Notes under the pieces: generated by a model
Seen by the model: only the letters and a program-made list of their open reading frames with translations
What the model was told of the DNA's origin: nothing
Databases searched by the model: none
Translations under genes and position numbers: made by a program
In this document: piece by piece, positions 4,748 to 18,335 of the stretch
Layout of the letters: every line of letters begins with the position of its first letter
Numbering within the stretch: the stretch's first letter is position 1
Source: an uncultured Alphaproteobacteria bacterium
GTDB lineage: Bacteria > Pseudomonadota > Alphaproteobacteria > HIMB59 > GCA-002718135
Length of the DNA stretch: 64,000 nt
Assembly (NCBI GenBank): GCA_902620425.1
Contig: CACNHX010000001.1
Location: 414,903 to 478,902, forward strand
Reading direction: 5' to 3'

Positions 4748-4840
4748 TAATTCCTCCCTATTTTTTTTTTATCTTACGTGAAATAGGTAAAATAACAATT
4801 GAAAATAAAATTAAAATTGTGTTAATATTTATTAATTTTT

Positions 4841-5266
4841 ATGAAATATTTACACACAATGGTGAGGGTTGAGAATATTGATGCTTCGCTAGACTTTTAT
4901 TGTAACAAACTTGGATTAAAAGAAGTACGACGAGTTGAAAACGAAAAAGGTCGTTTTACCCTCATATTTTTAGGTGCTGAAAATAGCGATGAAAGAACGG
5001 GTCTTCTTGAATTAACATATAATTGGGATCCTGAAAAATATACTGGGGGCAGAAACTTTGGTCATCTAGCTTACAGTGTTAACAATATTTATGAAGTGTG
5101 TGAAAAATTAATGAATAACGGCGTCACAATTAATAGACCACCTCGTGATGGACATATGGCTTTTGTCCGCTCTCCCGATGGAATTTCCATTGAGATATTA
5201 CAAGAAGGGGAATCTTTACCAGAACAGGAACCATGGAAGTCTATGGAAAATTCTGGAAGTTGGTAA
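4841..5266 (+). CDS. gloA: Lactoylglutathione lyase (glyoxalase I, VOC family)
   Basis: MKYLHTMVRV, LELTYNW, FGHLAY, FVRSPDGISIE metal-binding motifs. Confidence 0.88.
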   Translation: MKYLHTMVRVENIDASLDFYCNKLGLKEVRRVENEKGRFTLIFLGAENSDERTGLLELTYNWDPEKYTGGRNFGHLAYSVNNIYEVCEKLMNNGVTINRPPRDGHMAFVRSPDGISIEILQEGESLPEQEPWKSMENSGSW

Positions 5267-5267
5267 T

Positions 5268-6500
5268 TTATAAAGCTAGTTGTTTTTTTCCTAAAGGAGT
5301 TAAGTCGTCAATTGTAGCTCTGTTTTTATAAGTAACTTCATAATCCTCAGCTGCAAAATCGGGTGGGCTTTTTCCCTCGATAAATTTTTTGGATTGCTTT
5401 TGAGCATAAGCTAAATTTTTTTCACAGTAAGGTGTGGATCCAACATACACCACATTTGAATAACCTGTTCCAGAATGATGATCTTCCACTGCATGAACTA
5501 CATCTGGATGCCACCACACTGTATCACCTGCATTCATTTTTGGAATTGAGACTAATCCCCTTAATAAAAGAGAGTGATACGTCGAATTAACAGACAGTGC
5601 CCTTGCTGGTTTAGAACCACATAATTCATTTTCATTTACATCCTCCATTAAGGCTCTTGTTAAAATAAAGGCCATGGACTTTGCTATTGGTATTAATTGC
5701 AGTGTACCATCTCCAGGACCTTGTTGAGTTAAAGCCACCCAACCTTGAAAAGTTCTAAAGACATGACTAACAGCAGGAGATTCTATTTCTTGAGTTTTAT
5801 TTCTATAAGAAGCATTAAAGGGATCATATTCTAGAAATTTGTCAGCAAAAACTTTTTCGTAAACTGATTGATACCCTTTATCTATCCATCTTTCAACTGA
5901 GCCAGCATCACAGTGAGGTGATAATCCTAAAGTTGAGTCTCCTGGTTCTCTTCTTCGAATACGATCAGCATAAACAAGTTCTTGATTAGGATCAAAAATT
6001 ACTTCATCTTTATTTTTATTGATCCAAAGATTATTTAACCATTTTTTTACAACATCCATTTCAGCAGATTGTCTTATTTGCACTTGTGTTTTTGACCAAT
6101 ACAATCCAAATATCTGCGGTTTACCTGATTTTAATTCACTGAAATATTTATCTAAATCAGCTTTTTTCTTTTGATCTTCATAATAGTTATTTTCTTCAAT
6201 ATAATTTTCTAAATTTTTATTCATTTCATCCATCATATTATCTTCAAAAACATCTCTTATAATAACACAACCTTTTTGTTTAACTTCTCTTTCAAATTCT
6301 TCTGTATTTGAATTTAAATCTTGGAATTTAATCTCTGGAATAATTTGTTTATTATTTTTCTTTAAGTCTTCTATTTTTATAATTTCACTTAAAATATATT
6401 TTTCAATTTTTGAAAAATTTTCTCTAAAATTCTTTGATTTATTTCTTAAAATATTTTTTTCTTTAATAATTATGTCTTCAATATTTTTTAAATCAATCAT
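5268..6500 (-). CDS. YbiU/DUF1479-family putative Fe(II)/2-oxoglutarate oxygenase
   Basis: YADRIRRREPG, PHCDAGSVERW (HxD), FRTFQGW, WWHPDVVHAVE (distal His). Confidence 0.8.
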   Translation of the reverse strand: MIDLKNIEDIIIKEKNILRNKSKNFRENFSKIEKYILSEIIKIEDLKKNNKQIIPEIKFQDLNSNTEEFEREVKQKGCVIIRDVFEDNMMDEMNKNLENYIEENNYYEDQKKKADLDKYFSELKSGKPQIFGLYWSKTQVQIRQSAEMDVVKKWLNNLWINKNKDEVIFDPNQELVYADRIRRREPGDSTLGLSPHCDAGSVERWIDKGYQSVYEKVFADKFLEYDPFNASYRNKTQEIESPAVSHVFRTFQGWVALTQQGPGDGTLQLIPIAKSMAFILTRALMEDVNENELCGSKPARALSVNSTYHSLLLRGLVSIPKMNAGDTVWWHPDVVHAVEDHHSGTGYSNVVYVGSTPYCEKNLAYAQKQSKKFIEGKSPPDFAAEDYEVTYKNRATIDDLTPLGKKQLAL

Positions 6501-6507
6501 AGTTCAA

Positions 6508-7485
6508 TTAAATTTTTACTTTATAATATTTTTCGGGATTAGTGGCCAAAGCTATAACAGATGGAAGAACAAGTCTATAAAATTCAAATAAGCTTTTGAA
6601 AGGTTTAGGTAATTGATCGTCTATTTCTTTTCTTAATTTTTTAAGATTATAGGAAGGTATCATCGGAAACATATGATGTTCTAAATGATATTCCATATGC
6701 CAATAAAGAAAACTTAAAATTGGGTTTATTCTTACAGAATAAGTGCTTAAGCGGTGATCTTTTGTGTCAACTTTAGCAGCTAGATGTTGAGTCACATTAA
6801 CAGCAAACCAAATTGGCTTCCCAATATAAGTTGGTAAAATAATATAAATTATTGGTAAAAGAGAACCTATGTAAAAAGAATATGCAATGACTGATAACCA
6901 AATGAAGAGATATAATCTTGAGTTCCAAAGAATTTTTTTCTTTTCTTCTTTAGGTGCTGTTATATCAATAACTGGAGTGAATTTTCCAAAAGCATGTTTT
7001 AAAACTTCAAATTTAATTAATTTATGTGGGTATAATAAATCTGTAAGAGGTATAAAATTCAAAAAGAATGCAAATAATTCTATCGGTCTTGATACTTGAA
7101 TTTCGTGATCATAATCATCTTCTGTTTGTAATGTTTTTGAATGATGAAAAGTATGACTCCAACGCCATCTAAAACCTTCAAAGTCACACATGAAAGAACT
7201 GATGTGATAAAAAAATTCGTTTATCCAACGAGTCTTGAATGCAGTTCGATGAACAGTTTCATGCCAGTTTGCTACACTGAAAGCGTAAATTGTACCATAA
7301 ATAAAAAAGAATAGATATGTCCACCACGTACTTAAGGTAATGTATGCTAAATATCCTGAAATAAATAAAAATAAAAAATAAAAGAAGAAATGGATTAGTC
7401 CAGGCAGATCTCTTCTTTTACTTAAGACTTTTAATTTTTTTCTGTCGACTTCTGGTCTGTACCAATCATCGAGATTAATTTCCAT
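6508..7485 (-). CDS. Membrane diiron fatty-acid-desaturase-superfamily enzyme, MocD-like
   Basis: Three His boxes HETVH, HTFHH, HLEHH. Segments HETVHRTAFKTRW and WRWSHTFHH resemble rhizobial MocD (recalled, not searched). Confidence 0.8.
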   Translation of the reverse strand: MEINLDDWYRPEVDRKKLKVLSKRRDLPGLIHFFFYFLFLFISGYLAYITLSTWWTYLFFFIYGTIYAFSVANWHETVHRTAFKTRWINEFFYHISSFMCDFEGFRWRWSHTFHHSKTLQTEDDYDHEIQVSRPIELFAFFLNFIPLTDLLYPHKLIKFEVLKHAFGKFTPVIDITAPKEEKKKILWNSRLYLFIWLSVIAYSFYIGSLLPIIYIILPTYIGKPIWFAVNVTQHLAAKVDTKDHRLSTYSVRINPILSFLYWHMEYHLEHHMFPMIPSYNLKKLRKEIDDQLPKPFKSLFEFYRLVLPSVIALATNPEKYYKVKI

Positions 7486-7499
7486 GCTTGATAATTAAA

Positions 7500-8435
7500 T
7501 TAATTATCCCAACGATCTAACCATGACCCATCAACTGTGGAGTCAAATTGGTCTTTTTTTGAAGTCCCTCTAAATTTAGTGTGTTGTTCTTCATAACCTT
7601 TAAACCAAGAATCCCAATCAGCTGTATAGCTTGGGTCTTCTGATTTTCTCATTATGATTGGATCAACCAAACCAGTATGAAAACCAGCTTCATCTTTTGG
7701 ATTTTGAAATCGTAGGTCAACGCTCCACCTTACATCCTCAGATAAATTTTCAAGTGATCGATGAGGAACTAATTGATGTAAAAATAAAACTGAACCAGCC
7801 TTCATTTCACAAGTAACAACTTTCTCTTCTGGAATATCTTTGTCTTCAATAAATAAATACCAAGAATCTTTTACTGAACCATCTTTCTTTTCTAATTTAT
7901 GATTCAAAACTCTTTCAGGTCTATGTCCTCCAGGAACAACTTGCATGCATCCATTATTTTTATTTACATCTAGAAATGGAATCCACGCAGCAGGCTGAGT
8001 GGTTTTTTCTGCTCCATCTTTTAAATAAGCAGAATCTTGGTGCCATGGAACTGTCATCCTAGCTGTCTGAGGTGTTTTAGATCTAATATTCCAAACTGGA
8101 TGACCAGAAATATCTTTGCCAACCCAATTTTCAACCATATCTAAAAGTTTTTTTGATCCCCATAAGTTAGCGAGGGCTGGTTTTAATTCGCCTCTATGAT
8201 GAATTAAAACTGAAGAACCTTTAAAATCTCTTTCGAGAGCAGCTAGTCTTTTAAAAACATCTTTATCATCATGTTTGTTTGTAATTTTTCCAGCTTGAAA
8301 AGCTTTTTCTGCAAAATCATCAACAATTTCTTCAAATTCATTTAATATTGGATTTAAATCATCCATACTAAAAACATTTTCAACGATCGTATAACCTTCT
8401 TCGTTATATTGTTTTATTTGCGCATCACTAATCAT
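7500..8435 (-). CDS. Phytanoyl-CoA dioxygenase (PhyH) family Fe(II)/2OG oxygenase
   Basis: VPWHQD (HxD), WIPF, GCMQVVPGGH, HQLVPHRS...RWSVDLRF. Start refined to ATG 8435 behind a GGAGG SD. Confidence 0.85.
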   Translation of the reverse strand: MISDAQIKQYNEEGYTIVENVFSMDDLNPILNEFEEIVDDFAEKAFQAGKITNKHDDKDVFKRLAALERDFKGSSVLIHHRGELKPALANLWGSKKLLDMVENWVGKDISGHPVWNIRSKTPQTARMTVPWHQDSAYLKDGAEKTTQPAAWIPFLDVNKNNGCMQVVPGGHRPERVLNHKLEKKDGSVKDSWYLFIEDKDIPEEKVVTCEMKAGSVLFLHQLVPHRSLENLSEDVRWSVDLRFQNPKDEAGFHTGLVDPIIMRKSEDPSYTADWDSWFKGYEEQHTKFRGTSKKDQFDSTVDGSWLDRWDN

Positions 8436-8449
8436 AATTCCTCCCAAAA

Positions 8450-9187
8450 TTATCCATTCACTAATAAATCAGTTAGATGATCTATTGTTGTGTCTTTTTT
8501 ATCCAAATCAGCAATTTTTTCACCTCTTGCCATTACACATAAATGATCAGCAATTGGATATACATGACTCAAGTTGTGAGTAATAAATATTGATGTCACG
8601 CCTTGGCTTTTTAATCCTTCTACAAACCTTAGTACTTTATTTGTTTCTTTTACTGATAAGTGGTTTGTTGGTTCGTCTAATATTAAAACTTTTGACTTAA
8701 AATACATTGCTCTTGCAATCACAACACCTTGTCTTTCTCCTCCAGACAATTGGTTAACTGGTGTATCTGGAGATCGAAGATGCAGTTCAACATCTGTTAG
8801 TGCTTTCATCGCATCGTCCTGCATGGTTTTAGTTTTCATTAAACCAAAATTGCCAACATTATATTGAGTTTGTTCACGTCCAATAAAAATATTTCTTGCA
8901 ATAGACATTTCAGGGATCAAAGCTGAATACTGATAAATTGTTTCAATGCCTAAATTCATTGCTTCTTTTGTAGATTTAAATTTAACCTTATTACCTTCAA
9001 AATATATATGACCTGAATCAGGTTGATGTGCACCAGATAAAATTTTAATTAATGTTGATTTACCAGCACCATTGTCTCCAATAAGACCGACAACAGAGTC
9101 TTTTTTTATCTTTAAGCTTAAATCTTTTAAAGCATGAACTCCTGAATAGTATTTGTTTAAACCCTCACAAACTATTATATCTTCCAT
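8450..9187 (-). CDS. Sugar ABC transporter (CUT2) ATP-binding protein
   Basis: Walker A GDNGAGKST, signature LSGGERQ, Walker B LILDEPT. Confidence 0.93.
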   Translation of the reverse strand: MEDIIVCEGLNKYYSGVHALKDLSLKIKKDSVVGLIGDNGAGKSTLIKILSGAHQPDSGHIYFEGNKVKFKSTKEAMNLGIETIYQYSALIPEMSIARNIFIGREQTQYNVGNFGLMKTKTMQDDAMKALTDVELHLRSPDTPVNQLSGGERQGVVIARAMYFKSKVLILDEPTNHLSVKETNKVLRFVEGLKSQGVTSIFITHNLSHVYPIADHLCVMARGEKIADLDKKDTTIDHLTDLLVNG

Positions 9188-9189
9188 CT

Positions 9190-10170
9190 TTAATCCTTTG
9201 CCTTGTTTTGACCAATTCGTGTCGCTCTTCTACTTATATAAGTATTAAACACTACAGCTATGATAATTAAAGAACCTAACCCTGCTCTAAACCATTCAGC
9301 ATCTATTCTAGCCATAATGATACCACTTTCTAAAAACCTGATTAGTATTGCGCCAATAACGGCACCAAAAACTGTTCCGATACCTCCAAATAAACTGACA
9401 CCACCAATAACTGCTGCAGCAATTGACTCTAGTTCTAATAAGTATCCTTGAGATGGTAATGGTGCTTCCAATCTAAATGTTTGAATCATTCCAGCAAAGC
9501 CAGCTAAGAAACCACATAAGATGAAACAAAACATTTTAACGTTTCCAGTTTTTATTCCCATTGAAGATGCAGCGTTTTGATCTCCGCCAGTTGCATAGAT
9601 CCAGTTACCAACATTACTTCTGTGAAGCATAACACCTAAAACAACGGCAACTAAAAGAGCCCAGTACAAGGACGCTCTAAATAACTCAAATTGATAAACG
9701 AATAACTCATTTGGTAAAATATGAGGAAATGGTGGTGGAAATCCTGCAGTAGCAACAGTTGTAAGACTTCTAGCAATATAGAGCATTCCAAGAGTTGCGA
9801 TGAAAGAAGGAATACCAAATCTTAAGGTAATAAATCCATTAACAAAACCAACAATGATACCAATCATTAATCCTAGAAAAATAGCGAACCAAGGTGGTAT
9901 CCCTTGATGCACCATTTGTACAATAGTCATCGGGACTAATGCAAAAACAGAGCCTACAGATAAATCAAATTCACCTGAGATCATTAATATTGCAATCCCA
10001 ATAGCAACAATAATATATTCGGGTGTAATACCCATAACTATTCTTATATTTCTTGCATCTAAAAATCTTTCATTAGCAATATAAAATCCAATCATTATTG
10101 CTAGAAACATTAAGAAGGTTGCTACTTCTGGTCTTACTAATAAACTTCTAAGACTAAAATTTTTACTCAT
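9190..10170 (-). CDS. Sugar ABC transporter (CUT2) permease
   Basis: RbsC-like: GEFDLSVGS, IPSFIATLG, LESIAAAVIGGVSLFGG. Confidence 0.92.
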   Translation of the reverse strand: MSKNFSLRSLLVRPEVATFLMFLAIMIGFYIANERFLDARNIRIVMGITPEYIIVAIGIAILMISGEFDLSVGSVFALVPMTIVQMVHQGIPPWFAIFLGLMIGIIVGFVNGFITLRFGIPSFIATLGMLYIARSLTTVATAGFPPPFPHILPNELFVYQFELFRASLYWALLVAVVLGVMLHRSNVGNWIYATGGDQNAASSMGIKTGNVKMFCFILCGFLAGFAGMIQTFRLEAPLPSQGYLLELESIAAAVIGGVSLFGGIGTVFGAVIGAILIRFLESGIIMARIDAEWFRAGLGSLIIIAVVFNTYISRRATRIGQNKAKD

Positions 10171-10184
10171 ATTTTTTTTATTTT

Positions 10185-10218
10185 AAAAAAAACCAGGCTC
10201 TATTTAAAGAGCCTGGTT
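10185..10218 (-). terminator. Intrinsic terminator-like hairpin downstream of SBP gene
   Basis: 11-bp stem AACCAGGCTCT/AGAGCCTGGTT (10191-10218) with a T tract on the minus strand. Confidence 0.8.
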
Positions 10219-10225
10219 AAGATAT

Positions 10226-11191
10226 TTATCTAACTGACATTCCTTTGAATGATCTGATTGTTTCAACATCATCAGGACCAATCATAGCTTTACCAGTGTT
10301 GATATCTAGTGCACTTAAACCATACTTGTTCATTAAGTATAATTGGTGAACTGACATGTAACCTTGGTAGTATGGTTGTTGGTCAACTGTTAGTTGAACA
10401 TAACCTTTGTCCATTTCTTCGAAAACTACGTCAACTAAGTCAAAACCAGCAAGAAGTATTTCACCAGGTCCGTAACCTAAGTTTCTTACTGCTGCAGCTG
10501 CACCAGCTTCCCAGAAACCTACATCAAGATATGCAGTTGTATTTGGGTTAGCTTGAACATAAGCTGCCACTCTGTTTCCAACAGTTGAAAGATCTAGACC
10601 TGACTCGATTTTCTCATAAGTTACTTTTCTATCAGGGTTTGCTGCTTTGTAATCTTCCATGAAACGTGCAATACCGTTTCCTCTAGTGTATGCCCATGAT
10701 TGGTTCATATCTGCAACACCGATTAGAACGTGAATATCTCCATCAGGAAACATTTCAGAAAGATTAGCTGTTAATTCATAACCAGCTGCTTCTAAGTCTT
10801 GTCCAACATATGCTAGTCTGTTACTACCAGCAGCACCTTCTGGATCATCAGTATTAGCTGTAATTACTGGAATACCAGCAGCTAATGCTTCATCAACTGC
10901 AGCATCAAAGATAGTTGGGTTAGTAATTGTTGTTACGATACCATCAACACCTTGAGCTATTGAAGACTCTAAGTTTTGTAATTGCTCTTGTTGGTCTCCA
11001 TCACCTGAAAGAGTTAACATTTGGCAATCAGCATTAATTTGTGCACAAGCATCTTTAAAACCTTTGTGAACAGCTGCCCAGAAAGCATTGTTCGTATCAC
11101 TGTGCATTACGAAGTTAAATTTGTATTCTGCCTTCGCTGAAGTAGCAAAAAGCGCTACAGAGGCAAGAATAATTGAAGCAATTTTTTTCAT
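10226..11191 (-). CDS. Sugar ABC transporter (CUT2) periplasmic binding protein
   Basis: Sec signal peptide, RbsB/LacI-type fold motifs (FWAAVHKG, AGFDL, TVDQQPYYQGY), AGGAGG SD. Strand verified as minus (CAT at 11189-11191); the track label is wrong. Confidence 0.9.
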   Translation of the reverse strand: MKKIASIILASVALFATSAKAEYKFNFVMHSDTNNAFWAAVHKGFKDACAQINADCQMLTLSGDGDQQEQLQNLESSIAQGVDGIVTTITNPTIFDAAVDEALAAGIPVITANTDDPEGAAGSNRLAYVGQDLEAAGYELTANLSEMFPDGDIHVLIGVADMNQSWAYTRGNGIARFMEDYKAANPDRKVTYEKIESGLDLSTVGNRVAAYVQANPNTTAYLDVGFWEAGAAAAVRNLGYGPGEILLAGFDLVDVVFEEMDKGYVQLTVDQQPYYQGYMSVHQLYLMNKYGLSALDINTGKAMIGPDDVETIRSFKGMSVR

Positions 11192-11302: not shown

Positions 11303-12454
11303 TTATATTTTTTTTAGGATTTGCCTTATGAAATCGTCATGCATGGGTTCAGGCTTCACACACGAAGAACGGAGCTCTACTTCCACTTTATAAATTGAAG
11401 AAATCATAGCACATTCAATTACATCTAAAACGTGAAGAGCAAGTTCTCCATTACACCTATGCATTCTATTATTTTCGATGGCGTCAATCATTTCAGCTAA
11501 CCCAATACCCCTGTAGTTTGCTTGTTCAGGCGCTTCATTACTTCTTCCACTATGGTTAACAATATTTGTTTTTCCAAGGGGTTTATCTTCGACGCTAATA
11601 TCTTTCCATTCAGATCCAAACTCACCAGATATGGAAACTGGACCACCAAACATATTTGGATCAGGAACTACTATTGAACCTTTCGTTCCATAAAGCTCCA
11701 TATGATTACGTTTATGATTTAAAACATCAAATGAAATGAAGCCTTGAATAATAGCTTTATTTTGAAACTCAATATTAAACATATAAGAAGTTGGAATTTC
11801 AACATTAAAAGTTTCTCCTTTTTTTGGACCAGCTTTGTATTCTCTTTTATCAGAAAATTTGGCTCCTCTTCCTCTTATATTTTTTACAGGACCTAGAAGA
11901 TTAACAAGTGTTGTGAAAAAATATGGACCCATGTCTATTACAGGTCCTCCTCCTTCTTGAAACCAAGACTCAGGACTTGGATGAAAATCTTGAACACCAG
12001 GAAAAGCAAAAATAAAATTACCGGTTAAAACTTGTCCAATATCATTGTTGTCAATTAAATTTCGTGTAAGTTGACCTCCTCCTCCTAAAAAAGTATCTGG
12101 TGCATTACCAATATAGAGACTATTTTTTTTTGCTAAATTTAATAATTCTTTTGCTTCATCAAACTTAACACTCATTGGTTTTTCGCAATAAACATGTTTG
12201 TTTGCCTCAAGAGCTCTTTTAGATATTTCATAATGAGCTTGGGGAATTGTGAGATTAAGAATGATGTCTACATTCTTGTCATTAAGTATTTCATCAACTG
12301 ATAAAGGAATAATATTATATTGATCAGCTGTTTTTTTAGCAGCATCTAAATTAATATCAGCACAAGCAACAAAATTTATATTATTAAAATATTCCTGAGC
12401 CCGGAAGTAGGTCTCTGCAATATTACCGCAACCAATCAGTCCAATATTTTTCAT
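11303..12454 (-). CDS. Gfo/Idh/MocA-family NAD(P)-dependent oxidoreductase
   Basis: GLIGCGNIA Rossmann motif, HVYCEKP, GGGPVIDMGPY. Strand verified as minus. Confidence 0.9.
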   Translation of the reverse strand: MKNIGLIGCGNIAETYFRAQEYFNNINFVACADINLDAAKKTADQYNIIPLSVDEILNDKNVDIILNLTIPQAHYEISKRALEANKHVYCEKPMSVKFDEAKELLNLAKKNSLYIGNAPDTFLGGGGQLTRNLIDNNDIGQVLTGNFIFAFPGVQDFHPSPESWFQEGGGPVIDMGPYFFTTLVNLLGPVKNIRGRGAKFSDKREYKAGPKKGETFNVEIPTSYMFNIEFQNKAIIQGFISFDVLNHKRNHMELYGTKGSIVVPDPNMFGGPVSISGEFGSEWKDISVEDKPLGKTNIVNHSGRSNEAPEQANYRGIGLAEMIDAIENNRMHRCNGELALHVLDVIECAMISSIYKVEVELRSSCVKPEPMHDDFIRQILKKI

Positions 12455-12546: not shown

Positions 12547-13464
12547 TTACATAAAGTCTGCAGCGTTTTCTTTAGTAACTAATACAGTTCCAGTATCAAT
12601 GTTATCTGGAATGCTCTCACCATTAGCTAATTTAAGTGCATTTTCTACACCCATGTATCCCATGTTGTATGAGAATTGAGCAATAGTTGCTGACATTTCA
12701 CCAGCCATTACACTTGCAGCAGCATCAGGGTTAGCATCAAATCCAACAACGACAACATCATCTAGCATATCAGCATTTTTTAATGCTTGGATAGCACCTA
12801 GACCCATATTATCGTTAGAAGCAAAGATTGCTTTTAGATTTGGGTTACCAGTGATGATATCTTCAGTTACTGACATACCTTGTGCAGTATCCCAATTAGC
12901 TGGAAGTTCAGCAACAATGTTCATGCCACATGCTTCAAGACCTTTGTGTGATCCTTCAGCTCTGTGTTGACCAGTAGTTTGTGTGATCATTCCTTGAAGG
13001 ATTGCAACATCAGAACCACTTGGAACATTATCACAAATGTATTGAGCAGCTAAAGCAGCACCATTGATATTGTTTGTACCAATGAAAGTTACACCTTCAT
13101 TAATTCCATTAGTATCAATGTATACAACTGGAACACCTGAAGCCATTGCATCATCAAGAATTGGTGCAACTGCGTTAGGGTCAGTTGGTGCAATCGCTAT
13201 ACCGTCTACACCTTTAGCAATTTGGTCTTCAATTTGTGCTACCTGAGCCATAACATCACTCTCTTGTGGTGGTGAAAGGATAATAAGGTTTACACCTAAT
13301 TCTTCAGCAGCATCTTTAGCACCAGCTTCAACTGAAGCCCAAAAAGGGTTTCCAGCACCTGGTCCTTTAGTACTTAGCATAATTGTTTTTGCATGTGAGC
13401 CTGCTAAAAGACTACCTGAAAAAAACAATACAGAAGTAGTAATTATAGAAATAAAAAATTTCAT
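12547..13464 (-). CDS. Sugar ABC transporter (CUT2) periplasmic binding protein, RbsB-like
   Basis: Signal peptide, NPFW, IGTNN, AIFASNDNMGLGA, VVGFDA, ATIAQ. Strand verified as minus. Confidence 0.92.
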   Translation of the reverse strand: MKFFISIITTSVLFFSGSLLAGSHAKTIMLSTKGPGAGNPFWASVEAGAKDAAEELGVNLIILSPPQESDVMAQVAQIEDQIAKGVDGIAIAPTDPNAVAPILDDAMASGVPVVYIDTNGINEGVTFIGTNNINGAALAAQYICDNVPSGSDVAILQGMITQTTGQHRAEGSHKGLEACGMNIVAELPANWDTAQGMSVTEDIITGNPNLKAIFASNDNMGLGAIQALKNADMLDDVVVVGFDANPDAAASVMAGEMSATIAQFSYNMGYMGVENALKLANGESIPDNIDTGTVLVTKENAADFM

Positions 13465-13553
13465 TTTTCCTCCTAAAATTTTTTTTTAATCATTAATCAA
13501 AAATGAAATTCTAATCAAGTGACTGTTTGTCAGAAAGTGATTATTTTTTGATA

Positions 13554-14561
13554 TTATGTTCTGGTTGCAAGTTGTCTTCTTAGAACATCAATATAAACAG
13601 CCAAAATAATAATTGACCCAATAAGAACTTGTTGCCAAAAAACACTGACATTCATTAGATTTAGACCATTTCGGAGTATACCCATAATCATGACTCCAGC
13701 AAATACACCTAAAACAGTTCCTCTACCCCCAAAGAAGCTTGCTCCACCTATAATTACCGCTGCAATCGCATCTAGTTCAGATTGTAAACCGGCATTTGGA
13801 TAAGCGGAATTTGTTCTTCCAGCTAAAATTAAACCTCCAATACCAGCCAAGAAACCACAAAGGGTGTAAACTACGATTAAAATACGATCGACATTTATAC
13901 CTGCTGCCCTAGCTGCTCCTGGGTTGCCTCCAATCGCATAAATCCATTTACCTATTCTTGTATGATTTAAAAATATCCAAAAGATAAAGAATATAACAAT
14001 CATTAAAATTAAACTTGTGGGTATATACTCTCTAGCGCCTTCTCCAAAAATTACATCTAGTTTAATTTTACCATTTCCGATAACTCTAATCTGTTCAGCA
14101 AAACCTGTTATTGGCACACCTCCAGAAATAAGGTTTCCAATTCCTCTAAATATATACAGCGTGCCCAATGTCATAATGAATGGATGAGGCATGCGAAGTA
14201 AGGTAATGCCAATACCATTAAACATACCACACAAAAATCCAATTGCTGGCGCAACTAACATGACAACGTACCAAGGCATTCCTGCCTTCGAAGCAATAGC
14301 GAGTCCCATTAATGATAACATAATAATTGAACCGACTGATAGATCTATACCTGCAGTTACAATGACCATAAAGACACCAAGTGCTAACATAGACTGCCAA
14401 GAAACTTGTTTAAAAATATTTGTTACATTTCTCCATGATAAAAAAACATCAGGTTGCAACAAATGCAAAACAGCAATCATTATTAGGATAAGTAATAAGA
14501 TTCCATATCTTTCAAAAAAAGGAATAAGTCTGACAAATAAAGATTCTTGACTCTTATCCAT
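13554..14561 (-). CDS. Sugar ABC transporter (CUT2) permease
   Basis: AGIDLSVGS, PFIMTLG, YAIGGNPGAARAAGI, ELDAIAAVIIGGASFFGG. Start refined to ATG 14561, which overlaps the upstream TAA. Confidence 0.92.
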   Translation of the reverse strand: MDKSQESLFVRLIPFFERYGILLLILIMIAVLHLLQPDVFLSWRNVTNIFKQVSWQSMLALGVFMVIVTAGIDLSVGSIIMLSLMGLAIASKAGMPWYVVMLVAPAIGFLCGMFNGIGITLLRMPHPFIMTLGTLYIFRGIGNLISGGVPITGFAEQIRVIGNGKIKLDVIFGEGAREYIPTSLILMIVIFFIFWIFLNHTRIGKWIYAIGGNPGAARAAGINVDRILIVVYTLCGFLAGIGGLILAGRTNSAYPNAGLQSELDAIAAVIIGGASFFGGRGTVLGVFAGVMIMGILRNGLNLMNVSVFWQQVLIGSIIILAVYIDVLRRQLATRT

Positions 14562-15307
14562 TAATCTTTTTTCCCCATGATCCATCCAATCACTTCGTCT
14601 CTTGAAGTGTTTTTTAATTCTGATTCAGCGAAGTTTGTTCCTTGAAAAAGTGCCATTACGCGATCACAAACAGTAAAAATATCATCCATTCGGTGACTAA
14701 TTACTATTACACTAACACCTAACTTTTTAAGATTTAAAATTAAATCTAAAACTTTCCCAACTTCCTTAACAGCAAGTGCAGCTGTCGGTTCATCCATCAA
14801 TACAATTTTTGCATTAAAAGCTGTAGCTCTAGCAATTGCAACTGCTTGTCTTTGTCCACCTGATAATTCTTCAACCTTTTGATCAGCACTTTTTACATTT
14901 ATTTTTAGTTTTGCAAGATGCTCTTCGGTTAACTGTTTTCTTTTTTTATGATCTAAAAAATTAAAAGGGCCGACTTTTCTTGTTGGCTCTCTTCCTAAAA
15001 AAATATTATCACCGATAGGGAGATTCCCAGCTAGCGCTAAATCTTGATAAACCATTTCTAAGCCCAAATTTTGTGAGTCTCTGGGACTATTTAAAGTTAC
15101 TTTTTCCTTATCAAAAAAAAGTGAACCTTCACTTGGCTTGTATAATCCTGATAAAACTTTCATTAATGTAGATTTCCCAGCACCGTTATCGCCGACGACA
15201 CCAAGAACTTCACCTTTATTTAAATGAAGATCTACATTTTGAAGAGCTGTGATAGTACCAAAAAATTTTGAAACTGATTTAGCTTCCAGTACTAAATTAT
15301 CTGACAT
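14561..15307 (-). CDS. Sugar ABC transporter (CUT2) ATP-binding protein
   Basis: GDNGAGKST, LSGGQRQ, LMDEPTAAL. Confidence 0.93.
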   Translation of the reverse strand: MSDNLVLEAKSVSKFFGTITALQNVDLHLNKGEVLGVVGDNGAGKSTLMKVLSGLYKPSEGSLFFDKEKVTLNSPRDSQNLGLEMVYQDLALAGNLPIGDNIFLGREPTRKVGPFNFLDHKKRKQLTEEHLAKLKINVKSADQKVEELSGGQRQAVAIARATAFNAKIVLMDEPTAALAVKEVGKVLDLILNLKKLGVSVIVISHRMDDIFTVCDRVMALFQGTNFAESELKNTSRDEVIGWIMGKKD

Positions 15308-15328: not shown

Positions 15329-16357
15329 TTAATTAATATCAACTGGTTTTGATCGTAAATATTTAACAGTTTCTCTCTCAGCTTTTTTACATAATTTAGG
15401 AGGCAGGCCTTTTGAAATAAGTTTTAAATCTTGAATTACTAATTCACCCATCTCTTTAAATGCACTGTTTAATGCGCCAGCCCTATGCGGAGAAAAAATT
15501 ACATTTTTGAGTTTTCTTAATTTATGATTTTTAGGAAATGGTTCTTTTGGAAAAACATCAATGGCAGCAAACACATTTCTATTTTTTAAAAAATTAAAAA
15601 AATCATCAAAATTTATTATGGCTGCTCTACTCATTAAGACAAACACTGATCCATCTTTTATTAATTTAAGTTTAGAGCTATTAATCATAGATTCATTAGA
15701 GGAAGTAATGGATGCAAGTACATAAATGATGTCAGCATTTTTGAGTAATGAATTTAAACTGGTTGGCTTAACATCCAATTTTTCAATTTCTTTATTGGGA
15801 ATCCAAGGATCATAGGCAATGATATTGTTAGAGAATGCTTTTAGTATAGGAGTAAGTGATTTGGCTAAATCTCCAAAACCAATTAAACCGAATGTTTTAT
15901 TTTTTAATAAAAAATTATTCTGACTAATTGCACCACCATATTTTTCTTTTTTTAAAATAAAGTCTGAGTGAGCAATATGGATACTTCTGGCTATAGATAA
16001 AGTAAGGCCCATTGCCATTTCAGCAACAGGTTGAGCAAACACAGGCGATGTTGCTAAAACGTGTATTCCATTTCTAAAACAATAATCATAATCCATATTG
16101 TCCATAAAATTACTCTCTACATTAAATATTGCTTTAAGTTTTGCAGATTTAGAAATTAAAGATGAAGGTAAATTGGGTTGCCCAAATATATAATCTGCCT
16201 TTGGTAGATTTTTTTCATAAAAATTATTTTTATTTTTTTTAGGAGCAGTAATGAGTTTAAAATTTTTTTTTAAGTATATTAAATTTTCTTTAGAAAAAAG
16301 TAGATCCATTGTTCTTGGATATGGATCTATTAAAATTATAGGCTTGTTTTGACTCAT
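15329..16357 (-). CDS. D-isomer-specific 2-hydroxyacid dehydrogenase family protein
   Basis: GLIGFGDLA, AYDPW, LMSRAAII, AIDVFPKEP, FSPHRAG catalytic motif. Confidence 0.85.
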   Translation of the reverse strand: MSQNKPIILIDPYPRTMDLLFSKENLIYLKKNFKLITAPKKNKNNFYEKNLPKADYIFGQPNLPSSLISKSAKLKAIFNVESNFMDNMDYDYCFRNGIHVLATSPVFAQPVAEMAMGLTLSIARSIHIAHSDFILKKEKYGGAISQNNFLLKNKTFGLIGFGDLAKSLTPILKAFSNNIIAYDPWIPNKEIEKLDVKPTSLNSLLKNADIIYVLASITSSNESMINSSKLKLIKDGSVFVLMSRAAIINFDDFFNFLKNRNVFAAIDVFPKEPFPKNHKLRKLKNVIFSPHRAGALNSAFKEMGELVIQDLKLISKGLPPKLCKKAERETVKYLRSKPVDIN

Positions 16358-16391: not shown

Positions 16392-18236
16392 TTATACGCC
16401 TTTACGTTGTTTATTTTTTCCTTCTAAAAATTCATTAAGAGCTGATTTCTTACCTTCGGTATTATCTACTTGAAGTGTTGGGCTTTCCCAAAAAGCTGTT
16501 CCTTCTAACCATTCATATCCATCTGTTTTCATAGAAATTACGTATGTTTTGTCTGATTCTTTTGCTCTTTTAAAAGCTGCCTCCAACTCTGAAATAGATT
16601 TAACAGTCTCACCGTTTGCCCCCATACTTTTTGCGTGAGCTTCAAAATCTACAAACTGTACATTTGTCGCTCTTGCAGCATTCAGATTGCAAAGATATTC
16701 ATTTCCACCTTTTGCTAGTTGCAATCTATTAATAACCATGTGACCACCATTATCACAAACAACTATAATTAATTTTTTATCATATAAAACTGAACTGTAG
16801 ATGTCGCTATTTTGTAAAAGGTATGAACCATCACCTACAAATACAATTACATCTTGTTCAGGTTTTGCCATTTTGATTCCGAGTGCACCTGATATTTCAT
16901 AACTCATGCAACTAAATCCCCATTCAGTTTCAAAAGTATTTAGTTCTTTAGGTTTCCATATTTGAACTACTTCACCTACTAATCCTCCAGCTGCGGTTAC
17001 AACAATATCTGATGAGTCTGAGTTTCTATAGACTGCACCTACAGCATGAGCATAGGATGGTAATTCTTGATTTGTTGGTCCACTTTCTTTGGCAACATAT
17101 TCATCCCATTTATTTCTTTCCTCAATTGAACGCTGGTACCAATTATCTGGTGCTTTCCAATCTCCTAATGCCTTTGATAATTCTTGAAGTCCAATTTTTG
17201 CATCGCTTACAACAGGAGTAGCGCGATGTTTTGTAGTATCAAATCGTGAAGTATTTATTGATACAAGTTGAAAATTTTCGTTTTCAAAATTAGTCCAAGA
17301 GCCAGTTGTAAAGTCTCCTAACTTTGTTCCCACAGCTAGTGCTAAATCTGTATCAGTAGCAAGATTATTAGATGAGCCTTCCCCTAAGCATCCAATTGCA
17401 CTTATGTAATAAGGATCATCTTTATTCATACAACCAATACCCATCACAGTTGCTGTTACAGGAATATTATGTTTTTTTGCAAAAGCGGAAATCTCCTCTT
17501 CTGCTTCTGAATATAAAACACCTCCGCCTGAAATAATAATTGGTTGTTTAGATTGTTTTAATTTATCAGCTGCCTTTTGTATTTGATTTGGATCAGGATG
17601 AATTCTTCTAATTTCATGAATTTTTTCTTCAAAAAAGATTTCAGGATAATCATACGCTTCTCCTTGAACATCTTGAGACATAGAAATTACTGCTGGGCCA
17701 CAGTCTGCAGGATCAAGCATTACATTAATTGCCTGAGGTAAAGATGTTAAAATTTGTTCAGGTCTAGTAATTCGATCAAAATATCTTGATACAGATTTAA
17801 ATGAATCATTTTGAGTTTCTGAGGGAGAATTAAAATGTTCAACTTGTTGTAAAACAGGATCTGGAAAACGACTAGAAAATGTATCACCTGGTAAAAGTAA
17901 AATTGGAAGTCTATTACTTAAAGCAACTGCAGCAGCTGTAACCATATTAGTAGAACCAGGTCCTACAGATGAAGTTGCAACAAATATTTGTTGTCTTCTT
18001 TTGGCACGAGCATATGCAATACCTGTTAGTGCCATATTTTGTTCATGATGACCTCTGTATCCAGGAAGTTCATTTTGATATTCTTCCATCGCTTGTCCGA
18101 TACAAGCAACATTACCATGGCCATAAATACCAAAAGCACCTGGAAATAGTGGTTCTTTTTTTCCATTAATTAAAATTTTTTGCATAGTTAAATATTTAAT
18201 TAATGCATGTGAACATGACATTCTAACTGTTTTCAT
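16392..18236 (-). CDS. iolD: 3D-(3,5/4)-trihydroxycyclohexane-1,2-dione hydrolase (ThDP-dependent)
   Basis: GIYGHGNV, HHEQNMA, SSVGPGSTNMVT, RFPDPVLQQVE, EWGFSCMSYE, GDGSYL ThDP motif. Start refined to ATG 18236. Confidence 0.88.
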   Translation of the reverse strand: MKTVRMSCSHALIKYLTMQKILINGKKEPLFPGAFGIYGHGNVACIGQAMEEYQNELPGYRGHHEQNMALTGIAYARAKRRQQIFVATSSVGPGSTNMVTAAAVALSNRLPILLLPGDTFSSRFPDPVLQQVEHFNSPSETQNDSFKSVSRYFDRITRPEQILTSLPQAINVMLDPADCGPAVISMSQDVQGEAYDYPEIFFEEKIHEIRRIHPDPNQIQKAADKLKQSKQPIIISGGGVLYSEAEEEISAFAKKHNIPVTATVMGIGCMNKDDPYYISAIGCLGEGSSNNLATDTDLALAVGTKLGDFTTGSWTNFENENFQLVSINTSRFDTTKHRATPVVSDAKIGLQELSKALGDWKAPDNWYQRSIEERNKWDEYVAKESGPTNQELPSYAHAVGAVYRNSDSSDIVVTAAGGLVGEVVQIWKPKELNTFETEWGFSCMSYEISGALGIKMAKPEQDVIVFVGDGSYLLQNSDIYSSVLYDKKLIIVVCDNGGHMVINRLQLAKGGNEYLCNLNAARATNVQFVDFEAHAKSMGANGETVKSISELEAAFKRAKESDKTYVISMKTDGYEWLEGTAFWESPTLQVDNTEGKKSALNEFLEGKNKQRKGV

Positions 18237-18335
18237 GTGTTCCTTTCCCAAAAAAAATAGATACTATTATAATAAAAAAATAATTTAAAGAGTTAAACAA
18301 TTTATTTTTCTAATATTTTAGAATATAAATTATTC

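What the first reader, a model, noticed from the sequence alone, without database searches (positions are those of the whole stretch)
5268..8435. Three mechanistically different non-heme iron oxygenases in tandem behind a sugar ABC transporter
Seen: PhyH-like (HxD...H), membrane diiron (three His boxes) and YbiU/DUF1479 (HxD...H) genes, 7-14 bp apart, directly after a CUT2 SBP-permease-ATPase. Established: YbiU/DUF1479 has no well-defined substrate; PhyH-like and desaturase-like enzymes hydroxylate or oxidatively demethylate small molecules. Inference: an uncharacterised oxidative unlocking pathway for a modified (e.g. O- or N-methylated) sugar or cyclitol, giving functional context for DUF1479.
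Basis: partly seen in the sequence, partly recalled or inferred. Interest (0 to 1): 0.7.

Follow-up and report, generated by a model that had tools for sequence, protein, structure and literature searches.

The report
Oxygenase pair behind marine sugar importer
A tiny-genome marine alphaproteobacterium links a sugar/cyclitol importer to a conserved pair of iron oxygenases that probably strip a methyl group from, or hydroxylate, a decorated sugar or inositol, while the third oxygenase (DUF1479) is an optional add-on found in few strains.

Summary
On the minus strand lie a PhyH-type Fe/2OG oxygenase (7500-8435), a three-His-box membrane di-iron protein (6508-7485) and a DUF1479/Gig2-like protein (5268-6500). 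They are 14 and 7 bp apart and sit directly behind a CUT2 SBP-permease-ATPase.

In 62 syntenic species-level loci the PhyH gene and the di-iron gene stay together (60 of 62). DUF1479 is present in only 6 of the 58 loci where the junction is visible, and in 7 of 48 species of the genus. Outside this genus none of about 80 DUF1479 loci has either partner within 8 kb. So the stated refutation test, that the trio is not conserved, is largely met.

The di-iron protein belongs to the rhizobial MocD family. Its relatives sit beside a MocE ferredoxin, a MocF reductase, a PanB-like protein and folD/purU. This genome has six such paralogs and one MocE/MocF set about 62 kb away. IolD and a MocA-type dehydrogenase lie just upstream.

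Most likely the pair is an oxidative unmasking module for an imported methylated or deoxy cyclitol or sugar. The substrate is unknown. PhyH and DUF1479 belong to one mechanistic class, so there are two classes here, not three.

The parts
10226..11191 (-). CUT2 periplasmic substrate-binding protein (SBP1) with a Sec signal peptide (MKKIASIILASVALFATSAKA|EY)
   Evidence: Pfam Peripla_BP_4, E = 3.5e-43. Its best NCBIfam match is the rhizopine SBP at 98.5 bits, far below the 420-bit cut-off. Its best PDB match is the Thermotoga glucose/xylose-binding protein. Summed contig depth in metatranscriptomes is 190-3000, against 3-36 over most of FAdes. A promoter-like TTTACA-16-GAAAAT and an AGGAGG ribosome-binding site lie upstream.
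10191..10218 (-). Hairpin of 11 base pairs followed by a T-run, directly after SBP1; a likely attenuator that sets a high SBP-to-membrane-component ratio
   Evidence: Terminator scan. Contig depth drops several-fold after it, yet RNA contigs read through it (X3 record 20, 8853-10993).
9190..10170 (-). CUT2 permease (BPD_transp_2)
   Evidence: Pfam E = 2.9e-42. It resembles the GguB and RbsC permeases.
8450..9187 (-). ABC ATPase, half-size (245 aa, a single nucleotide-binding domain)
   Evidence: Pfam ABC_tran. It matches only the first half of the ~500-aa CUT2 ATPase models such as YtfR, AraG and RbsA.
7500..8435 (-). PhyH-family Fe(II)/2-oxoglutarate-type oxygenase; cytoplasmic; conserved partner of the MocD-like gene
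   Evidence: HxD...H...R aligned to 2A1X. Orthologues are present in 60 of 62 syntenic loci and 29 of 48 species of the genus. Its best-matching 90%-identity cluster (94% identical) holds 1557 metagenomic sequences. dN/dS is about 0.05.
6508..7485 (-). MocD-like membrane di-iron oxygenase (FA_desaturase family, three His boxes)
   Evidence: Rhizobial homologues at 35-40% identity sit in FAdes-MocE-MocF-PanB-like clusters. The 75%-identical orthologue in MarineAlpha5_Bin7 is followed directly by MocF and MocE. There is no PDB relative by sequence.
5268..6500 (-). DUF1479/Gig2-like (YbiU family) HxD...H oxygenase-fold protein; a strain-variable last gene of the operon
   Evidence: Pfam E = 7e-121. 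PDB matches are 4RGK, 7TWC, 7TWE, 2CSG and 2DBI. Present in 6 of 58 syntenic loci and 7 of 48 species. The two haplotypes, with and without the gene, diverge in the last ~50 codons of FAdes. dN/dS is 0.06-0.12.
11303..12454 (-). GFO/IDH/MocA-family NAD(P) dehydrogenase (MocA/IolG-like, but not an IolG equivalog)
   Evidence: Pfam. It scores only 58.9 bits against TIGR04380. It is conserved in nearly all syntenic loci.
12547..15307 (-). Second CUT2 importer: RbsB-like SBP2 (12547-13464), permease (13554-14585) and ATPase (14561-15307)
   Evidence: A hairpin with a T-run follows SBP2 at 12499-12526.
15329..16357 (-). D-2-hydroxyacid dehydrogenase family gene between IolD and the importers
16392..18251 (-). 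IolD (3D-(3,5/4)-trihydroxycyclohexane-1,2-dione acylhydrolase); the upstream anchor of the island
   Evidence: TIGR04377 at 770 bits, above the 715-bit cut-off. It holds the same position in every island variant seen.
4841..5266 (+). Glyoxalase I gene, convergent with DUF1479; its stop codon is 1 bp from the DUF1479 stop; downstream boundary of the variable operon
   Evidence: TIGR00068 at 118 bits, just under the 120-bit cut-off. It is present at this junction in 58 loci.

Best explanation
The functional unit is SBP1-permease-ATPase-PhyH-MocD-like, not a three-oxygenase pathway.

A periplasmic CUT2 binding protein captures a decorated carbohydrate and the ABC system imports it. At the inner face of the membrane the MocD-like di-iron monooxygenase acts first or alongside the PhyH enzyme. 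It receives electrons from NAD(P)H through the genome's single MocF-type FAD reductase and MocE-type Rieske ferredoxin, which are encoded about 62 kb away. The soluble PhyH-type Fe(II)/2OG oxygenase acts on the same molecule. Each enzyme hydroxylates an unactivated C-H bond. The most likely targets are O-methyl groups, which then leave as formaldehyde or a C1 unit, or a deoxy CH2 position.

The unmasked polyol is then oxidised by the adjacent MocA-type dehydrogenase. It is fed to IolD and the rest of the scattered iol pathway (IolG, IolE, IolB, IolC, IolJ).

I favour a methylated or deoxy inositol-type cyclitol as substrate. A methylated aldose is nearly as likely.

DUF1479 is a third oxygenase of the same HxD...H class as PhyH. 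It is an optional terminal cassette carried by a minority of strains, and probably extends or alters the range of decorated substrates.

What is shown: gene content, motifs, conservation of the pair, variability of DUF1479, family context and read-through RNA contigs. What is inferred: the chemistry, the electron donors acting in trans, and the substrate.
For: - Families and catalytic motifs are intact.
- The pair is conserved: 60 of 62 loci with the FAdes orthologue also carry the PhyH orthologue. This holds even where the importer differs (SBP only 41% identical; L039, L050, L051 and L064) or where extra genes are inserted.
- In MarineAlpha5_Bin7 the FAdes orthologue (75%) is followed by MocF and MocE, with the PhyH orthologue (82%) as the next gene.
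- Rhizobial homologues lie in clusters of LacI regulator, TIM-barrel protein and SBP on one side, and FAdes, 'MocE family ferredoxin', FAD reductase, PanB-like, iolG, purU and folD on the other. This is the classical moc layout plus C1-folate genes, as expected for a demethylase.
- The window's genome has six His-box-intact paralogs but one MocE/MocF/PanB-like set, at C1:356975-359407. MocE is present in 24 of the 29 PhyH-positive species, although these SAGs are incomplete.
- IolD lies upstream as an equivalog-level match. IolG is also an equivalog-level match. IolC, IolB, IolJ and IolE are found elsewhere in the genome, and in AG-464-G03 they sit inside the same island.
- Metatranscriptome contigs bridge SBP1-permease-ATPase, ATPase-PhyH and PhyH-FAdes.
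- MocD-like genes pair with 2OG-type oxygenases in other, non-orthologous modules: PhyH265-rhaM-FAdes, FAdes-CUT1 importer-2OG-FeII_Oxy, and PhyH240-PanB-like / FAdes-GFO at C1:104-116 kb of this genome.
Against: - There is no biochemical evidence here, and the MocD family itself is known only genetically.
- The operon carries no MocE, MocF, PanB-like protein or regulator of its own.
- SBP1 is far below the rhizopine-SBP cut-off (98 versus 420 bits), and its nearest solved relatives bind glucose or xylose.
- The dehydrogenase is not an IolG equivalog.
- The paralogous MocD cluster at C1:352-364 kb carries a lactonase and an IlvD/EDD dehydratase. That points to aldoses, not cyclitols.
- More distant PhyH homologues (49-56% identity) lie in mixed contexts, one of them with no sugar genes at all.
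- Contig depth is a poor measure of expression, and DNA carry-over in the RNA libraries cannot be excluded.
Confidence: 0.55

Rival explanations
1. The architecture is the same, but the substrate is a methylated or deoxy aldose from algal polysaccharide or marine DOM, for example an O-methyl hexose or O-methyl deoxyhexose. After demethylation the GFO enzyme acts as an aldose 1-dehydrogenase or 3-dehydrogenase. IolD is merely a neighbour in the island.
For: - The paralogous MocD cluster of this genome sits with an SGL lactonase and an IlvD/EDD dehydratase, which form an oxidative aldose route.
- AG-426-I04 has PhyH-rhaM-FAdes-GFO-IlvD/EDD.
- The island also carries a CUT1 importer, four sulfatases, GalE/GalT and an SDR-FAH-LldD deoxyhexose end-pathway.
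- SBP1's nearest solved relatives bind glucose or xylose.
- Oxidative demethylation of 6-O-methyl-galactose is an established need of marine bacteria (PMC6292453 and PMC9400963).
Against: - IolD heads every variant of the operon seen.
- iolC, iolB, iolJ and iolE lie in the same island in AG-464-G03.
- The best NCBIfam match of SBP1 is the rhizopine (inosamine) SBP, though weakly.
- No lactonase or sugar-acid dehydratase is present in this operon.
Confidence: 0.25
2. The genes do not share a pathway. The region is a hypervariable flexible island in which cassettes accumulate. Under this reading the FA_desaturase-family protein modifies membrane lipids, and PhyH and DUF1479 act on unrelated small molecules. 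Their adjacency to the importer is hitch-hiking.
For: - The island is highly mosaic. It has many alternative cassettes between IolD and ribF/ileS, and DUF1479 shows presence/absence polymorphism with a recombination breakpoint inside the 3' end of FAdes.
- PF00487 is primarily a lipid desaturase family.
- SAR11 DUF1479 orthologues sit with MsrB and glutaredoxin, not with sugar genes.
Against: - The PhyH-FAdes pair persists across importer swaps and in another lineage.
- Spacing is tight (2-14 bp) and RNA contigs read through the junctions.
- The family sits next to MocE/MocF ferredoxin systems and C1-folate genes rather than lipid genes, in rhizobia, SAR11 and MarineAlpha5.
- Six paralogs in a 1.5-Mb genome are hard to explain by lipid desaturation.
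Confidence: 0.1
3. One reading: an obligate three-oxygenase pathway in which PhyH, the MocD-like protein and DUF1479 each carry out a necessary step on one imported molecule.
For: - The three genes are 7-14 bp apart on one strand.
- In this genus DUF1479 is found only at the end of this island's operons, and is twice translationally coupled to the GFO gene.
- DUF1479 homologues are linked to sugar metabolism in E. coli (the ybiUVWY-fsaA operon, PMC8464067), Candida (GlcNAc-inducible GIG2, reference 5 in PMC7832408) and Neurospora (the CLR-1/CLR-2 regulon, PMC4620465).
Against: - 52 of 58 syntenic loci lack DUF1479 while keeping everything else.
- Only 4 of the 29 PhyH-positive species have it.
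- Three DUF1479-positive species lack this PhyH.
- No DUF1479 locus outside the genus has either partner within 8 kb. That covers about 69 SAR11 loci, 3 distant loci and 10 from a 400-genome phylum sample.
Confidence: 0.07

Closest known systems
Rhizopine catabolism genes mocCABR-mocDEF of Sinorhizobium meliloti L5-30 and Rhizobium leguminosarum (a genetic model: the MocDEF ferredoxin-oxygenase, MocA dehydrogenase, MocB SBP, then the inositol pathway; cited in PMC10107442)
   Same: Both have a FA_desaturase-family membrane di-iron protein of the same family (35-40% identity to rhizobial proteins that are followed by a 'MocE family ferredoxin' and an FAD reductase). Both have a GFO/IDH/MocA dehydrogenase, a CUT2 SBP and a link to iol genes.
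   Different: The operon has no MocE or MocF; the genome's single set is about 62 kb away. There is no MocR or LacI regulator and no MocC TIM-barrel gene. SBP1 is far below the rhizopine-SBP cut-off. A PhyH-type oxygenase is the constant partner, which is not part of the moc genes as described in PMC10107442 or of the rhizobial clusters viewed here. The host is a streamlined marine oligotroph with six paralogs.
Cytochrome P450 / ferredoxin / ferredoxin-reductase system for oxidative demethylation of 6-O-methyl-D-galactose in marine Flavobacteriia (PMC6292453, PMC9400963, PMC10033563)
   Same: The proposed logic is the same: an oxygenase fed by a ferredoxin chain removes an O-methyl group from an algal carbohydrate so that normal catabolism can proceed, releasing a C1 unit.
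   Different: The catalysts are entirely different: membrane di-iron plus Fe/2OG enzymes instead of a haem P450. Uptake is by an ABC importer rather than a polysaccharide-utilisation locus. The activity here is inferred, not measured.
YbiU / DUF1479 / Gig2-like proteins (PDB 2CSG, 2DBI, 4RGK, 7TWC, 6AKZ), all without an assigned reaction
   Same: The match is full-length (397 bits to 4RGK, 330 bits to 2CSG) with conserved HxD...H. Homologues in other organisms also carry carbohydrate-linked hints (PMC8464067, PMC4620465, PMC7832408).
   Different: Here it is a strain-variable last gene of a cyclitol/sugar operon. SAR11 orthologues (64-70% identity) sit in an unrelated DAO-EamA-2Hacid_dh-deacetylase-MsrB context.
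PhnY*/PhnZ and TmpA/TmpB, in which a PhyH-type 2OG hydroxylase works with a di-iron oxygenase in sequence (from my own knowledge; not tested here)
   Same: They set a precedent for a PhyH-family hydroxylase and a di-iron oxygenase acting one after the other on a single small imported molecule in marine bacteria.
   Different: The di-iron partner there is a soluble HD-domain enzyme that cleaves a C-P bond. Here it is a membrane His-box enzyme, and no phosphonate genes are present.

Membership tests
PhyH family Fe(II)/2-oxoglutarate oxygenases (PF05721) | Profile match above the curated cut-off | tested here: met
   104.9 bits against a 22-bit cut-off, covering profile positions 1-211 of 213.
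PhyH family Fe(II)/2-oxoglutarate oxygenases (PF05721) | HxD...H iron triad and the Arg that binds the 2OG C5 carboxylate | tested here: met
   pwHQDsay, lvpHRS and vRWsv align with plHQDlhy, liHGS and fRKai of human PAHX 2A1X.
PhyH family Fe(II)/2-oxoglutarate oxygenases (PF05721) | 2OG-dependent turnover | not testable with these tools
   Needs an enzyme assay.
MocD-type membrane di-iron oxygenases (a subset of PF00487) | FA_desaturase profile match, three His boxes and a membrane-embedded topology | tested here: met
   120.8 bits against a 29.7-bit cut-off. HETVH at 75, HTFHH at 111 and HLEHH at 267, with hydrophobic blocks at 26-53 and 191-222.
MocD-type membrane di-iron oxygenases (a subset of PF00487) | Homology to proteins encoded directly upstream of a MocE Rieske-type ferredoxin and a MocF FAD reductase | tested here: met
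   35-40% identity over the full length to rhizobial plasmid proteins with that layout. The 75% orthologue in L084 is followed by MocF and MocE.
MocD-type membrane di-iron oxygenases (a subset of PF00487) | Its own MocE/MocF partners in the same operon | tested here: not met
   None lies in window 4700-18500. The only set in the genome is at C1:357826-359407, about 62 kb away. Use of this set in trans is inferred.
Rhizopine (3-O-methyl-scyllo-inosamine) catabolic locus | A MocB-type SBP at equivalog level | tested here: not met
   NF052284 at 98.5 bits against a 420-bit cut-off.
Rhizopine (3-O-methyl-scyllo-inosamine) catabolic locus | A MocR or LacI regulator and a MocC TIM-barrel gene in the locus | tested here: not met
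   Neither appears among the genes from 4841 to 18251.
DUF1479 / Gig2-like (PF07350) | Full-length profile match with conserved HxD...H | tested here: met
   404 bits, covering positions 3-407 of 408. SPHCDAGS and DVVHAV align to 4RGK and 2CSG.
CUT2 carbohydrate ABC importers | A Peripla_BP_4 SBP, a BPD_transp_2 permease and an ABC ATPase in one operon | tested here: met
   The ATPase is atypical: it has a single nucleotide-binding domain of 245 aa, against the ~500-aa fused form in the reference models.
myo-Inositol catabolic (iol) pathway | IolD and IolG at equivalog level, with the other iol genes present in the genome | tested here: met
   IolD at 770 bits against 715. IolG at C1:140135-141124 scores 385 bits against 355. 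IolC, IolB and IolJ (C7:897-3549) and IolE (C1:51889-52773) were found by 61-81% identity to the L169 island genes, which were labelled from their Pfam families only. They were not checked against curated cut-offs.

The most novel reading that the evidence does not exclude
MocD-like membrane di-iron oxygenases, paired with PhyH-type or other 2OG oxygenases, may form a modular two-oxygenase front end. It would have radiated in the most abundant oligotrophic marine alphaproteobacteria (the HIMB59/AEGEAN-169-like group and SAR11). This genome has six paralogs sharing one MocE/MocF pair. Each module would be tied to its own importer and would strip methyl groups from, or hydroxylate deoxy positions of, algal cyclitols and sugars. 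Examples are di-O-methyl inositols and cyclohexanetetrol converted to inositol. The C1 units would pass to folate through the PanB-like proteins. Within this frame DUF1479 would be a carbohydrate or cyclitol hydroxylase, which would give that orphan family its first substrate class.
Probability: 0.15. Interest if true: 0.75.

Novelty: new variant of a known kind. Interest (0 to 1): 0.5.

Why it matters
Methylated and deoxy sugars and cyclitols make up a sizeable part of algal exudates and marine dissolved organic matter. Yet the only demethylation route for carbohydrates that turned up in my literature searches for marine bacteria is a P450 system in Flavobacteriia. If the MocD-like/PhyH pair is an unmasking module, then some of the most numerous oligotrophs in the surface ocean use a different, iron-dependent route. 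It is highly represented in metatranscriptomes: SBP1 contig depth reaches about 3000. It would link carbohydrate use to C1/formaldehyde metabolism and to iron demand. It would also give the genetically defined but biochemically untested MocD family, and possibly DUF1479, a tractable test system. The module is small enough to screen for SBP ligands and to reconstitute in vitro. The specific claim about DUF1479 is weak, because that gene is dispensable in most strains.

Tried and rejected
- **An obligate trio.** Rejected by distribution.
- **Recent horizontal transfer of DUF1479 from SAR11.** Rejected. The sequences from this genus form their own clade beside, not inside, the SAR11 clade. GC3 (0.16) is like that of neighbouring genes.
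- **A true rhizopine locus.** Rejected: the SBP is below the cut-off and there is no MocR or MocC.
- **The all-Cys Rieske-like ORF at 19298-19618 as the dedicated ferredoxin.** Not pursued. It is only 37-43% identical to MocE over part of its length, and an earlier follow-up ties it to the FMN dehydrogenase.
- **A riboswitch or sRNA in the operon.** Nothing reached an Rfam threshold. The STnc430 match at 12491-12572 (41 bits against 47) overlaps the terminator hairpin after SBP2.
- **Sigma-70 promoter scan.** Not above chance: 50 sites found against 61 expected.
- **Literature.** Searches for DUF1479, MocD, SAR11 with rhizopine, pinitol demethylase and SAR11 SBP screens found no characterised enzyme of this kind. 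One search was wasted on off-target terms.
- **Context of distant PhyH homologues.** Mixed: 2 of 3 are near sugar genes, which is not decisive.
- **Failed look-ups.** Two encoding-contig look-ups failed because the chosen start codon was wrong.
- **Structure prediction and fold search.** Not run. Close solved homologues already exist for DUF1479, and a fold match would not identify the substrate.

Full report
**1. What is there**

The window comes from contig C1 (414903-478902) of a 1.54-Mb, 33% GC, 91%-complete assembly. Its closest public relatives are GORG single-cell genomes labelled "uncultured Alphaproteobacteria", plus MarineAlpha5_Bin7. The sister family in the same order includes a closed 1.4-Mb genome. 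I therefore infer the HIMB59/AEGEAN-169 group, but no tool names it.

The genes of interest lie on the minus strand. In transcription order they are:

| Gene | Coordinates |
|---|---|
| IolD | 16392-18251 |
| 2-hydroxyacid dehydrogenase | 15329-16357 |
| First CUT2 importer: ATPase, permease, RbsB-like SBP2 | 12547-15307 |
| GFO/IDH/MocA dehydrogenase | 11303-12454 |
| SBP1 | 10226-11191 |
| Permease | 9190-10170 |
| Half-size ATPase | 8450-9187 |
| PhyH | 7500-8435 |
| FA_desaturase-family protein | 6508-7485 |
| DUF1479/Gig2-like | 5268-6500 |

A convergent glyoxalase I gene (4841-5266) ends 1 bp from the DUF1479 stop. Beyond it lie a CUT1 importer and four sulfatases.

**2. Observation check**

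Family assignments are strong: E = 9e-30, 1e-34 and 7e-121. The catalytic motifs are intact.
- PhyH has HQD, a distal His and an Arg aligned to human PAHX.
- The membrane protein has three His boxes and two long hydrophobic blocks.
- DUF1479 has HCD and a distal His aligned to 4RGK and 2CSG, scoring 397 and 330 bits.

The gaps are 14, 14 and 7 bp. dN/dS is 0.04-0.12 for all three genes.

One correction is needed. The Pfam PhyH model also hits the DUF1479 protein (E = 2e-7). The operon therefore holds two mechanistic classes, not three.

**3. Is the trio a unit? No; the pair is**

A scan of one genome per species returned 62 loci with an orthologue (at least 80% identity) of the membrane protein.
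- 60 of them carry the PhyH orthologue. Of the two exceptions, L043 has less than 600 bp of sequence upstream of FAdes, and L052 carries only a different, 265-aa PhyH.
- 58 show the junction with glyoxalase I. DUF1479 is present in only 6 of those.

Whole-genome searches of 48 species of the genus give DUF1479 in 7 and PhyH in 29. Both occur together in 4. Neither occurs in 32 genomes of the sister family.

The haplotypes with and without DUF1479 are about 98% identical across PhyH and most of the membrane gene. Identity falls to 88% and then 73% over the last 200 nt of that gene. This looks like an old presence/absence polymorphism with a breakpoint inside the 3' end.

The pair persists under several changes:
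- when the importer is swapped (SBP only 41% identical; L039, L050, L051 and L064);
- when extra paralogs are inserted (L048);
- in MarineAlpha5_Bin7, where the 75% orthologue is followed by a MocF-type reductase and a MocE-type Rieske ferredoxin, with the 82% PhyH orthologue as the next gene.

**4. DUF1479 elsewhere**

- About 69 SAR11 loci carry an orthologue at 64-72% identity. The locus annotated with Pfam families has the context DAO-EamA-2Hacid_dh-deacetylase-MsrB-DUF1479, convergent with glutaredoxin.
- An HMM scan found no MocD-like or PhyH gene within 8 kb of any of these SAR11 loci.
- Three distant loci also have neither partner.
- In a 400-genome sample of the phylum only 10 other genomes have the family, again without either partner within 8 kb.

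The genus's own DUF1479 sequences form a clade beside, not inside, the SAR11 clade. Recent transfer from SAR11 is therefore unlikely.

Within the genus the gene lies in this island in all six DUF1479-bearing species whose loci I examined. It is the last gene of the operon in three of the four layouts:
- after the MocD-like gene (this window; 4 of the 7 species);
- after PhyH282-GFO with an 8-bp overlap (AG-447-J18);
- after FAdes46-TIM barrel-GFO with a 1-bp overlap (AG-464-G03);
- before a 47% paralog (L071).

This gives DUF1479 a carbohydrate-island context here. It fits hints from E. coli ybiUVWY-fsaA (PMC8464067), the Neurospora cellulase regulon (PMC4620465) and Candida GIG2 (cited in PMC7832408). 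It does not give DUF1479 a fixed partnership.

**5. What the membrane protein is**

It has no solved relative by sequence.

Rhizobial plasmids encode full-length homologues at 35-40% identity. These sit in clusters of LacI regulator, TIM-barrel protein and sugar SBP on one side. On the other side are the FA desaturase, a "MocE family 2Fe-2S ferredoxin", an FAD reductase, a PanB-like hydroxymethyltransferase, iolG, purU and folD. This is the moc layout with C1-folate genes attached.

The same four-gene core (FAdes, MocF, Rieske ferredoxin, PanB-like) occurs in Pelagibacter sp. Uisw_094 and in MarineAlpha5.

In the tree, the window protein groups at 100/100 support with the MocF-adjacent MarineAlpha5 protein, inside a family that includes the rhizobial proteins.

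The window's genome holds six paralogs, all with His boxes. It holds only one MocF/MocE/PanB-like set, at C1:356975-359407, about 62 kb from the window gene. MocE is found in 24 of the 29 PhyH-positive species, although these assemblies are only 53-90% complete. I infer that the window enzyme draws electrons from this shared pair.

**6. Pathway context**

- IolD passes its equivalog cut-off (770 against 715 bits).
- A true IolG is at C1:140135 (385 against 355 bits), among 18 GFO-family matches.
- IolC, IolB and IolJ are on C7, and IolE is at C1:51889.
- In AG-464-G03 the genes iolC, iolB, iolJ and iolE lie in the same island, just past glyoxalase I.

The island runs from the FMN dehydrogenase, Rieske-like ORF, 2Hacid_dh and IolD at one end to ribF and ileS at the other. 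It is hypervariable and carries alternative importers, oxygenases, ThuA/GFO, sulfatases and PanB-like genes.

This favours a cyclitol derivative. However, the paralogous MocD cluster at C1:352-364 kb carries a lactonase and an IlvD/EDD dehydratase, and SBP1's nearest solved relatives bind glucose or xylose. A methylated aldose therefore remains a serious rival.

**7. Expression**

Contigs were laid from four marine metatranscriptomes. Approximate summed contig depths were:

| Gene | Depth |
|---|---|
| SBP1 | 190-3000 in three runs (about 20-30 in X3) |
| Permease and ATPase | 11-260 |
| PhyH | 10-110 |
| Membrane (MocD-like) gene | 0-36 |
| DUF1479 | 0-10 |

Contigs bridge SBP1-permease-ATPase (8853-10993), ATPase-PhyH (7959-9273) and PhyH-FAdes (7051-8357 and 6800-7928).

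A hairpin of 11 base pairs with a T-run after SBP1 (10191-10218) fits attenuation. The low depth over DUF1479 and over the 3' end of the membrane gene fits the minority haplotype.

Two caveats apply. Contig depth is a poor measure of expression, and DNA carry-over is possible.

**8. A recurring theme**

MocD-like genes sit next to 2OG-type oxygenases in modules that are not orthologous to this one:
- PhyH265-rhaM-FAdes-GFO in AG-426-I04;
- MFS-FAdes-CUT1 importer-DIOX_N/2OG-FeII_Oxy for the closest (62%) paralog;
- CUT1 importer-PanB-like-PhyH240, divergent from FAdes-GFO, at C1:104-116 kb of this genome.

This supports a functional coupling of the two enzyme types on carbohydrates. Examples would be two regiospecific demethylations, or two hydroxylations of a deoxy-cyclitol. 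The chemistry is inferred.

**9. Comparison and novelty**

The closest known system is the genetically defined rhizopine moc locus. This operon shares the MocD family, a MocA-type dehydrogenase, a CUT2 SBP and the iol link. It fails the membership tests for the MocB equivalog, for MocR and MocC, and for in-operon MocE/MocF. It also adds a constant PhyH partner.

The analogous characterised chemistry in the sea is the P450 system for 6-O-methyl-galactose (PMC6292453, PMC9400963).

The literature I could search does not describe MocD-type modules in SAR11 or HIMB59-type bacteria, apart from a passing mocD hit in a 2007 metagenome (PMC1976395). Another agent of this scan reached a similar reading for a SAR11 island (e1-2329923). 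That agrees with mine but is not independent evidence.

**10. Verdict**

DUF1479 is an accessory cassette, so the stated refutation test for the trio is met.

I class this as a new variant of a known kind, of moderate interest. Its value lies mainly in the wider MocD-like/2OG-oxygenase radiation in abundant marine oligotrophs.

Noticed in passing
G000 C1:352000-364000 (locus L178), about 51-63 kb before the window start: A canonical moc-like cluster: IlvD/EDD dehydratase, SGL lactonase, FA_hydroxylase, FAdes, PanB-like, MocE Rieske ferredoxin, MocF reductase and FAdes, divergent from a CUT2 SBP-ATPase-permease. It holds the only MocE/MocF set in the genome and looks like an oxidative route for a methylated aldose.
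   Followed up: partly
G000 C1:104000-116000 (locus L181): A second PhyH plus MocD-like module in the same genome: a CUT1 importer, a PanB-like gene and PhyH (240 aa) on one strand, divergent from FAdes, GFO and a 499-aa protein with no Pfam match.
   Followed up: partly
Whole genome G000: A 1.54-Mb genome holds 18 matches to the GFO/IDH/MocA (IolG) profile and six MocD-like paralogs. This is an unusual investment in sugar/cyclitol oxidation for a streamlined cell.
   Followed up: partly
L170 (Mesorhizobium huakuii pMHb) and L171 (Rhizobium rosettiformans p1): A PanB-like 'ketopantoate hydroxymethyltransferase' follows MocDEF, together with purU and folD. The same PanB-like gene accompanies MocD-like genes in SAR11, MarineAlpha5 and this genus. 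It may pass the oxidised methyl group to tetrahydrofolate.
   Followed up: partly
window 1-4747 and downstream (L078 11754-21069): A CUT1 SBP with a TAT signal, two permeases and four sulfatases lie directly beyond glyoxalase I. This may be a sulfated-sugar cassette inserted between glyoxalase I and XylA2-like/ribF in this strain.
   Followed up: no
window 19298-19618 (-): A small Rieske-fold ORF, 37-43% identical to MocE over part of its length, lies at the fixed end of the island after the FMN dehydrogenase. Whether it serves the island's oxygenases was not tested.
   Followed up: no
window 8450-9187 and 14561-15307: Both CUT2 ATPases are half-size (245 and 248 aa, one nucleotide-binding domain). 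The reference CUT2 models have the ~500-aa fused double domain.
   Followed up: no
window 5266-5268: The DUF1479 and glyoxalase I genes converge with their stop codons 1 bp apart. No terminator-like hairpin lies between them, so their transcripts should overlap.
   Followed up: no
window 10226-11191: SBP1 reaches summed contig depths of 300-3000 in three marine metatranscriptome assemblies, far above its neighbours. Its ligand is probably common in surface seawater.
   Followed up: partly
L167 (Ca. Pelagibacter communis SCGC AAA795-O19) 3635-9487: The SAR11 DUF1479 orthologues sit in an operon of DAO, EamA, 2Hacid_dh, histone-deacetylase-like, MsrB and DUF1479, convergent with glutaredoxin. 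This is a quite different, redox-flavoured context.
   Followed up: partly
window 12491-12572 (-): A sub-threshold Rfam match to the enterobacterial sRNA STnc430 (41 bits against 47) overlaps the hairpin and T-run after SBP2. It is probably only the terminator.
   Followed up: no
L174 (unnamed 3.4-Mb metagenome contig) 4441-9930: A 49%-identical PhyH homologue ends an operon of CUT2 SBP, permease, ATPase, PfkB kinase and TenA/THI-4-like protein. This is another sugar-importer-linked PhyH outside the genus.
   Followed up: no
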